A model generated the notes under the pieces. That model did not search any database, had not been told where the DNA came from, and saw only the letters and a list, made by a program, of their open reading frames with translations. DNA of 38,841 bases from a virus (lineage: Duplodnaviria; Heunggongvirae; Uroviricota; Caudoviricetes): the IMG/VR virus record IMGVR_UViG_2541047816_000002. The stretch is one strand, 5' to 3'. This document shows positions 24,095 through 28,072 of the stretch, in pieces. Both the position numbers and the translations under genes were made by a program. Position 1 is the stretch's first letter, and the number at the start of each line of letters is the position of its first letter.

Positions 24095-25667
24095 TATGGT
24101 GGCCGCCGTTTCGGTTGCGCTGCAGCCTCTGGTCAGGGTTGTACCGATGACGGCAGTTGAATGGGCTGACCAGTATTATTATCTGCCGAAAGAATCCTCA
24201 TACGGTGACGGCGAATGGAAAACGCTGCCGTTCCAGATCGCCATCATGAACAGTATGGGGAATGATCAGATCCGCACTGTTAATCTGATTAAATCTGCCC
24301 GTGTTGGCTATACAAAGATGTTGCTGGGAGTCGCCGGGTATTTTATTGAGCATAAATCCCGAAACAGTCTGCTTTTTCAGCCCACGGATTCTGCCGCTGA
24401 AGATTTTATGAAGTCTCACGTGGAGGCGACGATTCGGGACGTGCCATGCCTGAAAGATCTTTCCCCGTGGCTGGGTCGTAAACATCGTGACAATACTCTC
24501 ATGCTGAAACGCTTTTCATCGGGGGTGGGCTTCTGGTGCCTGGGTGGTGCGGCAGCAAAAAACTACCGTGAAAAATCCGTGGACGTGGTCTGCTATGACG
24601 AACTTTCCTCGTTCGAGCCGGATGTCGAAAAAGAGGGCTCGCCAACCCTGCTGGGGGATAAGCGTATTGAGGGCTCGGTATGGCCAAAATCCATTCGCGG
24701 CTCGACGCCTAAAATAAAAGGCTCCTGCCAGATCGAAAAAGCGGCCAACGAGTCGGCGCATTTCATGCGTTTTTATGTGCCCTGCCCGCACTGTGGGGAG
24801 GCGCAGTATCTGAAATTTGGCGATGAGTCCACGCCTTTTGGCCTTAAATGGGAGAAGGACAGCCCCGAAAGCGTTTTCTACCTCTGTGAACATCATGGCT
24901 GCGTGATCCATCAGTCTGAGCTTGACCAGAGCAACGGGCGGTGGATCTGCGAAAACACGGGGATGTGGACCCGCGACGGTCTGACGTTTTTCAGTGCCGC
25001 GGATAATGAAATTCCGCCGCCGCGCTCCATCACATTCCATATCTGGACGGCGTACAGTCCGTTCACCACCTGGGTACAGATTGTCTATGACTGGCTGGAT
25101 GCACTGAAAGATCCCAACGGCCTGAAAACCTTTGTGAACACCACGCTGGGCGAGACCTGGGAAGAGGCCGTGGGCGAAAAACTCGATCACCAGGTGCTGA
25201 TGGATAAGGTTGTGCGTTACACGGCTGCGGTGCCTTCCCGGGTGGTTTATCTGACGGCGGGCATTGACTCGCAGCGAAACCGTTTTGAGATGTATGTCTG
25301 GGGATGGGCTCCGGGAGAGGAAGCCTTTCTGGTGGATAAAATCATCATTATGGGGCGTCCCGATGAGGAAGAGACGCTGTTACGTGTGGATGTGGCGATC
25401 AACAAAAAATACCGCCATGCAGACGGAACCGAAATGACCATTTCCCGTGTCTGCTGGGACACCGGGGGGATCGATGGCGAAATTGTCTATCAGAGGTCAA
25501 AAAAACACGGTGTTTTCCGGGTGCTGCCGGTAAAAGGTGCATCTGTTTATGGCAAGCCGGTGATCACCATGCCAAAAACCCGCAATCAGCGGGGCGTGTA
25601 TCTGTGCGAAGTGGGGACGGACACCGCAAAAGAAATTCTCTATGCCCGTATGAAAGCCGATCTATGA
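24066..25667 (+). pseudogene. A: Terminase large subunit gene A, N-terminal fragment (interrupted by IS)
   Basis: 533 aa collinear with recalled lambda gpA up to ...GTDTAKEILYARMKAD, then stop created at the IS junction. Confidence 0.85.
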
Positions 25668-25755
25668 GACGACAATAACTCAGTCCGCCTGGCGCCGATT
25701 ATTCTGGCCGGTTTTGTAACCTGAGTGTCATTTACATGATCCAACAGGAAATGGC

Positions 25756-27255
25756 GTGACGCTCAATACTTCTCAGGTCAGTTACTATATGACTCAGCGT
25801 AAGAAAGGTATAACTCAGCATATCTCGGCCATGAAGGCTGGTATCTCAGTCCGTTCTGGTCGTCGGATCGAAAAAGGAGAGTGGGCAAAAAACAGTGTTC
25901 GGCACTGGCGCACACGCAAAGATCCTCTGGAAGCTGTGTGGGACAGCATGCTTGTTCCTCTGTTGAAAGAGAGGCCGGCTCTGACACCAACAACTCTGCT
26001 GGAGATGCTACAGGATAAATATCCCGGCCAGTACCCCAACAGCCTTCGAAGAACAATGCAACGGCGGGTCTGCGAATGGAAGCTACAGTATGGTGCAGAG
26101 CAGGAGGTCATGTTCCGCCAGCGACATCAGCCCGGTCTGCGAGGTCTGTCGGACTTTACTGAACTGAAAGGTGTAGTTGTCACCATCGCCGGTAAGTTGT
26201 TGGCGCATAAGTTGTATCACTTCCGTCTGGAATGGAGCCACTGGAGCTGGATGCGGGTTGTGCTGGGTGGTGAGAGCTTCTCTGCTCTGGCTGAAGGTCT
26301 GCAGGAAGCCCTCGGACAACTGGGCGGAGTGCCGGTAGAACATAAAACGGACAGCCTGAGGGCAGCATGGAAACAACAGGGCGAAGATGGACGCCGCGAG
26401 CTGACTGAGCGTTATGCTGCTCTCTGTCAGCACTACGGAATGCAGGGCGTACACAATAATGCCGGTCGGGGCCACGAAAATGGCTCGGTTGAAAGTGCCC
26501 ACGGACATCTGAAAAGGCGTATCTGTCAGGCGCTGATACTGCGGGGCAGTAACGACTTCAGCACCATAGAAGAATATCAGGCCTTCATCACTCAGCAGGT
26601 TATGCGGCACAACCGTAACAATCAGGATCTGGTCAAGGAAGAACGTCTTCATCTGAAACCGCTGCCGCTTCGTCGCAGTGCTGACTATGATGAGCTGACT
26701 GTGAGGGTTAGCCGCAGCAGTACCATCAATGTGAAGCACGTCGTCTACAGCGTACCTTCCCGGCTTGTAGGTCAACTGTTACGGGTCCGGTTATGGGACG
26801 ATCGTCTGAGCTGTTACGTTGGCAGCAGCGAGGTCATGAGCTGCCCACGTGTCAGACCAGAAAAAGGGAAGACGCGGGCCCGTCGTATCGACTTCCGACA
26901 TGTGATCGACAGTCTGGCAAAAAAGCCCGGTGCGTTCTGCCATGCAACGCTGAGAAATGACATCCTGCCAGACGATGAATGGCGGAGGCTGTGGCGTCGC
27001 TTATGTAATCATCTGGAACCCGACATGGCAGGCAGGCTGATGGTACATGCTCTGAAACTGGCTGCAGGATACGACGATATCTCAGTCGTGGCAAAAGGTA
27101 TGGAGCAGATGCTGAATACCCCGGGAAACGTGGATCTGCACCGGCTGATGCGCTTCCTGGGTATAAAGGAAAAGGCGTTGCCGGTAGTCAATGTGAAACA
27201 GCATAACCTGAGCAGTTATGAGCAACTACTGCGTGGCAAGGGAGGTTCGCAGTGA
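25756..27255 (+). CDS. istA: IS21-family transposase IstA
   Basis: 499 aa; GTG start with AGGA RBS; overlaps istB by 4 nt. Confidence 0.85.
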   Translation: MTLNTSQVSYYMTQRKKGITQHISAMKAGISVRSGRRIEKGEWAKNSVRHWRTRKDPLEAVWDSMLVPLLKERPALTPTTLLEMLQDKYPGQYPNSLRRTMQRRVCEWKLQYGAEQEVMFRQRHQPGLRGLSDFTELKGVVVTIAGKLLAHKLYHFRLEWSHWSWMRVVLGGESFSALAEGLQEALGQLGGVPVEHKTDSLRAAWKQQGEDGRRELTERYAALCQHYGMQGVHNNAGRGHENGSVESAHGHLKRRICQALILRGSNDFSTIEEYQAFITQQVMRHNRNNQDLVKEERLHLKPLPLRRSADYDELTVRVSRSSTINVKHVVYSVPSRLVGQLLRVRLWDDRLSCYVGSSEVMSCPRVRPEKGKTRARRIDFRHVIDSLAKKPGAFCHATLRNDILPDDEWRRLWRRLCNHLEPDMAGRLMVHALKLAAGYDDISVVAKGMEQMLNTPGNVDLHRLMRFLGIKEKALPVVNVKQHNLSSYEQLLRGKGGSQ

Positions 27256-28007
27256 GCAATATCCATCACCTTGAACGCAGCCTGCGTAAACTACGCCTGA
27301 CACGAGTTGGAGCTGAATGGCACGCTCTGGAAAAACGAGCACTGGCAGAAGGCTGGACACCATCGCGCTATCTTCTGACGCTATGCAATGAAGAACTCCT
27401 GTGGCGCGAGAGTGAAAAACTGCGTCGTTATAAAAAGGAGGCCCGGTTGCCAGTTGCCAAAACGCTAAGCGAATACGACTTCAGTCAGGTGCCGGAACTG
27501 AATGGAGCTCAGTTCCGGCAACTCTGTGAAACGACAGACTGGGTTGATGCAGGAGAAAACGTTCTGCTGTTCGGAGCCAGCGGGTTGGGGAAAAGCCATC
27601 TGGCGGCAGCGATCGTGGATGGCGTAGTAGGCCAGGGCTACCGGGCCCGGTTCTACAGCGCAGGAGAGTTGTTGCAGGAACTACGTAAAGCCAGAGCGCA
27701 GTTGAAACTGAATGAGCTGCTACTGAAACTGGATCGCTACCGGGTGATAGTGGTGGATGATCTTGGCTATGTCAAACGCGACAGCGCCGAAACGGGAGTA
27801 CTGTTCGAGTTAATAGCGCATCGCTATGAACGTGGGAGCCTGGTGATAACCAGTAACCATCCGTTCAGCATGTGGGGCAGCATCTTCGTGGATGAGACTA
27901 TGGCGGTGGCGGCGGCAGACCGGCTGATCCATCACGGATATATGTTCGAACTGAAAGGTGAAAGCTACAGGAAAAAGACAGCGAAGGCAGTAACAAGCGC
28001 GACTTGA
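27252..28007 (+). CDS. istB: IS21-family helper ATPase IstB
   Basis: 251 aa; Walker A GASGLGKSHLAAA, Walker B VIVVDDLGY. Confidence 0.9.
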   Translation: MSNIHHLERSLRKLRLTRVGAEWHALEKRALAEGWTPSRYLLTLCNEELLWRESEKLRRYKKEARLPVAKTLSEYDFSQVPELNGAQFRQLCETTDWVDAGENVLLFGASGLGKSHLAAAIVDGVVGQGYRARFYSAGELLQELRKARAQLKLNELLLKLDRYRVIVVDDLGYVKRDSAETGVLFELIAHRYERGSLVITSNHPFSMWGSIFVDETMAVAAADRLIHHGYMFELKGESYRKKTAKAVTSAT

Positions 28008-28072
28008 TGTCGCACTGAAGGGTGCGGCCAGTATAGTTGGCGCGAGTCGGCAAAACTAGTTGACGTCTAATA

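What the first reader, a model, noticed from the sequence alone, without database searches (positions are those of the whole stretch)
25663..28072. IS21-family element splits terminase large-subunit gene A; prophage probably cannot package DNA
gpA-like coding sequence runs 24066-25667, stops at the IS boundary, and resumes in frame at 28073-28410. The intervening 2.4 kb encodes IstA (499 aa) and IstB (Walker A/B ATPase), bounded by imperfect inverted repeats and a 6-bp direct repeat CCGATC. Removing the IS plus one repeat copy restores ...YARMKAD-PTPVDEATSYAIRFPDDPEIF..., collinear with lambda gpA. Every other head and tail gene looks intact, so the insertion appears recent and may be the only obvious lesion in the late module.
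Basis: partly seen in the sequence, partly recalled or inferred. Interest (0 to 1): 0.55.

Follow-up and report, generated by a model that had tools for sequence, protein, structure and literature searches.

The report
ISEc10 insertion splitting prophage terminase gene
A known E. coli jumping gene (ISEc10) has recently inserted into the DNA-packaging gene of an otherwise intact lambda-like prophage, an ordinary and well-precedented way for a prophage to be crippled.

Summary
Window 25663-28072 is a complete 2,410-bp copy of ISEc10 (IS21 family; istA 499 aa, istB 251 aa). It has 48-nt imperfect terminal inverted repeats and a perfect 6-bp target duplication, CCGATC. It interrupts the terminase large-subunit gene (lambda A type) after codon 532 of 642.

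Removing the IS and one repeat copy gives a 642-aa protein. That protein is 100% identical to the annotated terminase of a near-identical, IS-free prophage next to ompW in E. coli AR_0017. It is 97% identical to viable phage PhiR12_1 and 66% identical and collinear with lambda gpA.

All 43 other annotated genes compared in the window are intact, and cosN is present. None of 5,426 complete E. coli genomes carries this junction. It occurs only in the draft assembly the window comes from (GCA_000458935.1) and in a few read sets, so it is recent and strain-specific.

The lost 110 residues include part of the nuclease domain and the C-terminal portal-docking end. The prophage therefore almost certainly cannot package its own DNA unless another prophage supplies terminase in trans.

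Both components and this kind of event are already known (for example, Sakai Sp4 nu1::IS). Interest is low.

The parts
23360..23371 (+). cosN: exact match to the lambda 12-nt cohesive-end sequence GGGCGGCGACCT, 228 nt upstream of the Nu1 start
   Evidence: (only exact match in the window). The function is inferred from its position and its identity to lambda cosN.
23588..24094 (+). Terminase small subunit (Nu1-like, 168 aa), intact
   Evidence: 0 aa differences from AR_0017 WP_001405844.1; Pfam Phage_Nu1 on the called gene
24066..25667 (+). 5' fragment of the terminase large-subunit gene A: 532 native codons, then Leu and a TGA supplied by the IS left end
   Evidence: (GpA_ATPase 49-293; GpA_nuclease profile 3-223 of 294)
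25657..25662 (.). Left copy of the 6-bp target-site duplication CCGATC
   Evidence: (6-bp overlap of the two flank alignments on the empty site)
25663..28072 (+). ISEc10 (IS21 family), complete 2,410-bp copy, transcribed in the same direction as the phage late operon
   Evidence: full-length matches printed as 100.0%, annotated ISEc10; identical termini in 6 other contexts; 0-1 nt differences
25663..25710 (.). Left terminal inverted repeat (48 nt, 71% complementary to the right arm)
   Evidence: (I1)
25756..27255 (+). istA transposase, 499 aa, GTG start. It carries Cys106 where most copies have Arg (nt 26071 T instead of C).
   Evidence: (NF033546, 223 bits, cut-off 160)
27252..28007 (+). istB helper AAA+ ATPase, 251 aa. 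Its start overlaps the istA stop (GTGA). Walker A is at 27573-27596 and Walker B at 27744-27761.
   Evidence: NF038214, 266.7 bits, cut-off 200; PF01695
28025..28072 (.). Right terminal inverted repeat
   Evidence: I1
28073..28078 (.). Right copy of the target-site duplication CCGATC
28079..28410 (+). 3' fragment of gene A (codons 533-642; the first base of codon 533 is C25662, duplicated as C28078). It encodes the end of the nuclease domain, including the invariant KKRRNEALDC block, and the C-terminal tail.
   Evidence: (GpA_nuclease profile 230-287)
28394..28597 (+). gpW-like head-tail joining gene, intact. It overlaps the end of A exactly as in the IS-free prophage.

Best explanation
A single, recent transposition of an active ISEc10 copy (IS21 family, IstA transposase plus IstB helper ATPase) landed in the terminase large-subunit gene (lambda A / phage 21 gene 2 type). 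The host element is a lambdoid prophage integrated next to ompW in an E. coli strain (draft assembly GCA_000458935.1). The insertion made the usual 6-bp target duplication.

Translation of A now stops two codons into the IS. The product is a 533-aa protein that keeps the N-terminal ATPase domain and about three quarters of the nuclease domain. It lacks the last 110 residues: the end of the nuclease fold, including the invariant NEALD block, and the C-terminal end that docks terminase on the portal.

The prophage should therefore still be able to excise, replicate, make heads and tails, and lyse. It cannot cut and package its own DNA unless a compatible terminase is supplied in trans.

Shown here: the identity and ends of the IS, the target duplication, the empty site, collinearity of the fragments, and the intactness of the neighbouring genes. 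Inferred: loss of terminase function and the resulting phenotype.
For: - **IS identity and ends:**
- **Empty site:** AR_0017 and six other complete genomes carry the same prophage at 99.6-100% identity without the IS. The two flank alignments overlap by exactly the 6 duplicated bases.
- **Restored gene:** the 642-aa protein is 100% identical to the annotated terminase WP_021535866.1, 97% identical to viable phage PhiR12_1 and 66% identical end to end with lambda gpA.
- **Split point:** Pfam places the two fragments at consecutive parts of one GpA_nuclease profile.
- **The junction is real:** an independent Logan assembly of SRR784508 reproduces window 23230-25691 and stops 29 nt into the IS.
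- **The IS is mobile:** ISEc10 makes de novo insertions in CFT073 under laboratory selection (PMC7482066).
- **Functional inference:** lambda Aam42, lacking only 5 C-terminal residues, cannot bind proheads and gives very low yield (PMC4856287).
- **Surroundings:** all 43 other CDSs compared are intact and cosN is present.
Against: - No experiment supports the phenotype.
- Terminase acts in trans, so particles carrying this genome could still form if the strain has a second compatible terminase. The E. coli genomes that match this A gene have a median of 2 matching places.
- The distal tail genes of the source assembly lie in gaps. It is therefore unknown whether this is the only lesion.
Confidence: 0.9

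Rival explanations
1. The prophage is not functionally dead. On induction, its genome is packaged by terminase from another lambdoid prophage in the same cell, or the gene is repaired by recombination with such a prophage. Under this reading the insertion has little effect on transfer.
For: - cosN is intact, and the head genes and proximal tail genes are intact.
- Lambda A-defective phage is rescued about 2000-fold in trans (PMC4856287).
- Sakai Sp4, whose nu1 is disrupted by an IS, is still packaged, probably by the Sp14 terminase (PMC2669165).
- Genomes that match this A gene have a median of 2 matching places. AR_0017, which carries the twin prophage, has 2.
Against: - The rest of the source genome could not be examined, so a compatible helper terminase is not shown.
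- By established knowledge of lambda/21 terminase specificity, a helper needs matching cosB/Nu1 and portal specificity, which only close relatives have.
Confidence: 0.2
2. The insertion is not the only or the first lesion. The prophage was already defective elsewhere, for example in distal tail genes outside the window, and the IS landed in a decaying element.
For: - A DNA methyltransferase gene at 15809-16856 is frameshifted.
- The tail region beyond gene L in the source scaffold is an N run, and the tape-measure gene contains a 10-N gap.
Against: - The methyltransferase frameshift is shared, base for base, with the IS-free twin prophage. It is not a morphogenesis gene.
- All 43 other CDSs compared have 0-2 amino-acid differences and no stops.
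- The gap in the tape-measure gene is flanked by a duplicated 36-nt stretch, which is typical of a contig-join artefact rather than a mutation.
- The twin prophages have complete tail modules.
Confidence: 0.15
3. The IS is an assembly or scaffolding artefact: a repeat was misplaced into the terminase gene of a draft genome.
For: - The window comes from a draft scaffold that has gaps and a join artefact just after the window's end.
- No complete genome shows this junction.
Against: - A perfect 6-bp target duplication of the length typical for ISEc10 flanks the element. A misjoin would not create one.
- An independent assembly of raw reads (Logan SRR784508; the same contig occurs in 4 samples) contains the gpA-IS left junction.
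- There are no Ns in or next to the IS.
Confidence: 0.02
4. The two gene halves are expressed as separate polypeptides that reassemble into a working split terminase.
For: A short ORF covering the C-terminal part is callable: 28060-28410 from a TTG inside the IS end, or 28087-28410 from a GTG.
Against: - The break lies inside the single GpA_nuclease domain, at profile positions 223/230 of 294.
- No lambda-type terminase found in the searches is split. All close relatives have one 642-aa ORF.
- No promoter-like site was found on the + strand near the right end of the IS.
Confidence: 0.01

Closest known systems
ISEc10 (IS21 family) copies in E. coli CFT073, UTI89/SE15 plasmids and ST131 strains
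   Same: - Length is 2,410 bp, with 0-1 nucleotide differences.
- Termini are identical.
- The istA/istB pair is the same.
- Target duplications are 5-6 bp.
- Known to transpose de novo (PMC7482066) and to insert into regulatory regions (PMC8764528).
   Different: - The target differs: this junction, in a prophage terminase gene, is absent from all 5,426 complete E. coli genomes searched.
- IstA carries Cys106 instead of the common Arg106. This allele is shared with strain SK0832.
E. coli O157 Sakai prophage Sp4, nu1 (terminase small subunit) disrupted by an IS (Asadulghani et al. 2009, PMC2669165)
   Same: An IS inactivates a terminase gene of a lambdoid prophage whose other functions largely remain.
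   Different: - There the small subunit is hit by a different IS, and packaging in trans was shown experimentally.
- Here the large subunit is hit by ISEc10, and nothing has been tested.
Lambda A nonsense mutants such as Aam42 (Sippy and Feiss 1992; discussed in PMC4856287)
   Same: The result is a C-terminally truncated gpA, with loss of the portal/prohead-binding end. The defect is recessive and can be complemented in trans.
   Different: - Aam42 loses 5 residues and still cuts cos.
- This truncation loses 110 residues, including part of the nuclease domain, so cos cleavage is probably lost as well (inference).
IS-free twin prophage at ompW in E. coli AR_0017 (NZ_CP024886.1 584673-~631000), and viable phage PhiR12_1 (PV340549.1)
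   Same: - AR_0017: 99.8-100% nucleotide identity over the whole window and the same gene order, from integrase to tape measure.
- PhiR12_1: terminase 97% identical.
   Different: - Both lack the IS and have a single 642-aa A gene.
- AR_0017 also differs in a 495-bp versus 123-bp cassette downstream of hokD.

Membership tests
IS21 family insertion sequence | Two consecutive same-strand genes: a long istA (DDE transposase) followed by a shorter istB | tested here: met
   istA is 25756-27255 and istB is 27252-28007, overlapping by 4 nt (GTGA).
IS21 family insertion sequence | IstA matches the curated IS21 transposase model above its cut-off | tested here: met
   NF033546 scores 223.3 bits against a cut-off of 160, over residues 12-304. 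Pfam reports only Mu-transpos_C_2.
IS21 family insertion sequence | IstB is an AAA+ helper ATPase with Walker A and Walker B motifs | tested here: met
   NF038214 scores 266.7 bits against a cut-off of 200, and PF01695 gives E = 9.5e-62. Walker A GASGLGKS is at residues 108-115 and Walker B VIVVDD at 165-170.
IS21 family insertion sequence | Imperfect terminal inverted repeats at the exact ends | tested here: met
   The arms are 48 nt and 71% complementary, at 25663-25710 and 28025-28072.
IS21 family insertion sequence | Short target-site duplication (4-8 bp for the family, from my recollection of ISfinder) | tested here: met
   The 6-bp CCGATC is proven against the empty site. Five of six other ISEc10 copies have 6 bp and one has 5 bp.
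IS21 family insertion sequence | Ends terminating in 5'-TG...CA-3'. I recall this as common in the family but not universal. | tested here: inconclusive
   The ends read 5'-TATGAGACG...CGTCTAATA-3'. TG sits at positions 3-4 of the left end, and the right end has no terminal CA. The same ends occur in all six reference ISEc10 copies, so this is a property of ISEc10 and not of this copy.
ISEc10 (the named element) | Full-length, near-identical nucleotide sequence to copies annotated ISEc10 | tested here: met
   Positions 1-2410 are covered with 0-1 mismatches against copies in CFT073, SK0832, UTI89 plasmid and others. ISfinder itself could not be queried.
Lambda-type terminase large subunit (gpA / TerL) | N-terminal GpA_ATPase and C-terminal GpA_nuclease domains in one polypeptide | tested here: met
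   This holds for the restored ORF. PF05876 covers residues 49-293. PF20454 profile positions 3-223 fall in the left fragment and 230-287 in the right fragment. In the window as it stands, the polypeptide is split.
Lambda-type terminase large subunit (gpA / TerL) | End-to-end collinearity with lambda gpA | tested here: met
   66% identity over 642/641 aa, with only one 1-residue gap and short C-terminal gaps.
Lambda-type terminase large subunit (gpA / TerL) | Genomic context cos - nu1 - A - W - B (portal) | tested here: met
   cosN is at 23360, Nu1 at 23588-24094, A at 24066..28410, W at 28394-28597 and the portal gene at 28594-30186.
Lambda-type terminase large subunit (gpA / TerL) | Endonuclease, ATPase and portal-binding activities | not testable with these tools
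   These need biochemistry or genetics. Loss of function is inferred from lambda A mutants.

The most novel reading that the evidence does not exclude
The IS lies co-directionally inside the Q-antiterminated late operon. Two untested consequences are therefore possible.

1. Prophage induction could drive read-through transcription of istAB and trigger a burst of ISEc10 transposition, including into replicating phage or other mobile DNA.
2. The truncated gpA keeps the Nu1-binding/ATPase part but has no portal-docking end. It could act as a dominant-negative subunit that poisons the terminase of related co-resident or superinfecting phages, giving the host a selectable benefit.
Probability: 0.05. 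Interest if true: 0.4.

Novelty: already known. Interest (0 to 1): 0.12.

Why it matters
Scientifically it matters little. It is a clean, textbook example of prophage inactivation by an IS, with an exact empty-site control, and could serve as a teaching or benchmark case. In practice it tells an annotator three things:
- The two A fragments should be marked as one pseudogene.
- The prophage should be scored as 'packaging-defective, otherwise complete'.
- ISEc10 was recently active in this strain's lineage.

Whether the element can still spread depends on a helper terminase, which is a known phenomenon in prophage-rich E. coli.

Tried and rejected
- **Same junction in complete genomes:** a 600-bp query spanning the left junction was searched against 5,426 complete E. 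coli genomes. No record covered 80% or more of it, so I could not show the insertion to be widespread. The source was found by exact-protein look-up instead.
- **Solved structure of gpA:** none was found by sequence, so I did no structural mapping of the break. I judged structure prediction unnecessary.
- **NCBIfam on the gpA fragments:** no hits. Pfam did recognise them.
- **Rest of the tail module:** I tried to examine it in the source genome, but that part of the scaffold is Ns.
- **Promoter/terminator scan of the IS region:** nothing above shuffle expectation that would support expression of the 3' fragment.
- **Rivals considered and rejected:** assembly artefact and functional split gene (see rival explanations).
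- **Target-site consensus:** the seven ISEc10 duplications seen (GTCTTC, GGCCGC, CTGATC, TCAGG, GGCTCC, CCTGGT, CCGATC) show no obvious consensus.
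Full report
**1. What is in the sequence**

The ORF map and the raw sequence show a + strand ORF that starts at the ATG at 24066. It runs to a TGA at 25665-25667. Two co-directional ORFs follow: 25756-27255 (499 aa) and 27252-28007 (251 aa). A further + strand ORF ends at 28410. The hexamer CCGATC lies at 25657-25662 and again at 28073-28078.

The 2,410 bp between the hexamers begin TATGAGACG and end CGTCTAATA. The ends form 48-nt inverted repeats that are 71% complementary.

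**2. Identity of the insert**

The 499-aa protein passes NCBI's curated IS21 transposase model (223 bits against a cut-off of 160). The 251-aa protein passes the IstB helper-ATPase model (267 bits against 200) and Pfam IstB_IS21. Its Walker A is GASGLGKS and its Walker B is VIVVDD.

Megablast of 25663-28072 against 5,426 complete E. coli genomes gives full-length (1-2410) matches printed as 100.0% identical. They lie in many unrelated chromosomal and plasmid contexts, all annotated 'IS21-like element ISEc10'.

I retrieved six of these copies. All have the same first and last 12 bases. Five are flanked by 6-bp direct repeats and one by a 5-bp repeat, each repeat different.

The window's copy differs from the common allele by one base (T instead of C at 26071, giving IstA Arg106Cys). 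It is identical to the copy in strain SK0832. ISEc10 is a live element: de novo insertions next to lpp were selected in CFT073 in the laboratory (PMC7482066).

**3. The interrupted gene and the empty site**

Deleting 25663-28078 (the IS plus one repeat copy) gives a 1,929-nt ORF of 642 codons.

- This sequence aligns in one piece, 1-1929, at 99.9% to genes annotated 'phage terminase large subunit family protein' in AR_0017, B2.3, GN06667 and others.
- Its translation is 100% identical to the AR_0017 protein (annotated as WP_021535866.1).
- It is 97% identical to the terminase A of the isolated phage PhiR12_1.
- It is 66% identical, end to end, to lambda gpA. A partial phage 21 record matches at 87%.
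- Pfam finds GpA_ATPase (residues 49-293) and GpA_nuclease profile positions 3-223 in the left fragment, and GpA_nuclease positions 230-287 in the right fragment.

The two pieces are therefore consecutive parts of one domain.

Direct BLAST of the window against the AR_0017 locus gives three blocks:

| Window | AR_0017 locus |
|---|---|
| 1-12260 | 2001-14259 |
| 12756-25662 | 14383-27289 |
| 28073-38841 | 27284-38052 |

The last two blocks overlap by exactly six subject bases, 27284-27289. That is the formal proof of a 6-bp target duplication.

**4. Context**

The window is a lambdoid prophage. It starts at the integrase gene, which in AR_0017 lies next to ompW, and it ends inside the tape-measure gene.

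I compared 43 other annotated CDSs with AR_0017. All are full length, have no internal stop and show 0-2 amino-acid differences. They include Nu1, W, portal, protease/scaffold, D, E, FI, FII, Z, U, V, G and T. An exact copy of lambda's 12-nt cohesive-end sequence lies 228 nt upstream of Nu1.

The only other broken gene in the window is a DNA methyltransferase (15809-16856). Its frameshift is shared base for base with the IS-free twin.

**5. Where the window comes from, and whether the insertion is real**

No complete E. coli genome contains the left junction. An exact-protein look-up of the truncated 533-aa product found it in NCBI draft assembly GCA_000458935.1 (scaffold KE700789.1) and in a Logan contig of SRR784508, a contig listed for 4 samples.

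The scaffold is identical to the window. The window ends 2 nt before a 10-N gap flanked by a duplicated 36-nt stretch, which is a contig-join artefact. The DNA beyond gene L is Ns, so the distal tail genes cannot be judged.

The Logan contig equals window 23230-25691 and stops 29 nt into the IS. That is what an independent short-read assembly does at a true repeat junction. Together with the target duplication, this rules out a scaffolding artefact for practical purposes.

**6. Consequence (inference)**

The truncated product has 532 native residues plus Leu. It loses residues 533-642. That stretch contains the invariant KKRRNEALDC block of the nuclease domain and the extreme C-terminus.

In lambda, Aam42 removes only the last five residues. 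That mutant still nicks cos but cannot dock on the prohead, and it gives very low yield (PMC4856287). A 110-residue loss that also cuts into the nuclease fold should abolish packaging and probably cos cleavage too.

In lambda, Q-modified RNA polymerase reads through terminators (established knowledge). The head and tail genes downstream of the IS are therefore probably still expressed. The expected phenotype is lysis with proheads and tails but no filled heads.

**7.

Terminase acts in trans.

- Lambda Aam42 is rescued about 2000-fold by a co-infecting A+ phage.
- The Sakai prophage Sp4, whose nu1 is disrupted by an IS, is nevertheless packaged, probably by the Sp14 terminase (PMC2669165).
- E. 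coli genomes that match this A gene have a median of two matching places.

With cosN intact, mobilisation by a helper prophage remains possible. It could not be tested, because the rest of the source genome was not available.

**8. Novelty**

The IS is a named element and the phage gene is identical to annotated ones. IS disruption of lambdoid terminase genes is documented. Other ISEc10 copies adjoin or split phage portal genes in strains Ecol_316 and HSP60.

The only new fact is this particular strain-specific junction.

Noticed in passing
window 12261-12755: A 495-bp segment just downstream of hokD replaces an unrelated 123-bp segment in the otherwise near-identical AR_0017 prophage. It carries an 83-aa ORF (12382-12633, MMNIEELRKIF...) with no Pfam hit. 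It looks like a small moron/cassette swap.
   Followed up: partly
window 15809-16856: A DNA N6/N4-methyltransferase gene is split by a frameshift into two overlapping ORFs of 224 and 182 aa (Pfam profile halves 1-105 and 110-219). The 1,048-nt region is identical in AR_0017, where PGAP also marks it 'frameshifted'. It is either an older shared pseudogene or a slippage site.
   Followed up: partly
window 16906-17155: Three phage-borne tRNA genes lie downstream of the Q antiterminator. One has a CAT anticodon: ARAGORN calls it Met, and PGAP calls the AR_0017 homologue Ile. The other two are Arg-TCG and Arg-TCT.
   Followed up: no
window 38841 (end); L011 13937-13946 and 15021-20753: The window ends 2 nt before a 10-N scaffold gap inside the tape-measure gene. 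The gap is flanked on both sides by the same 36-nt sequence, which is a contig-join artefact that falsely splits the gene into 773-aa and 104-aa ORFs. Everything beyond tail gene L in the source scaffold is Ns.
   Followed up: yes
window 26071 (istA codon 106): The ISEc10 copy has T where five of six reference copies have C, giving IstA Cys106 instead of Arg106. The same allele (WP_000174399.1) is in strain SK0832 at an unrelated site. Its effect on activity is unknown.
   Followed up: partly
other genomes: NZ_CP018957.1 ~3501475 (Ecol_316); NZ_CM137001.1 5146590-5166108 (HSP60): ISEc10 copies lie next to or inside lambdoid 'phage portal protein' genes in other E. coli strains; in HSP60 the portal is annotated twice around the IS. 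This suggests repeated independent hits of ISEc10 in prophage late genes.
   Followed up: no
window 18132-19985: A 617-aa ORF lies between the tRNA cluster and the lysis genes. It has DUF1737, SASA (sialate O-acetylesterase-like) and DUF6645 domains. It sits at the position where lambdoid phages carry cargo such as stx, so it is probably a moron.
   Followed up: no
window 23360-23371: An exact copy of the lambda cohesive-end sequence GGGCGGCGACCT lies 228 nt upstream of Nu1. The prophage therefore keeps a lambda-type cosN even though its terminase is only 66% identical to lambda's.
   Followed up: partly
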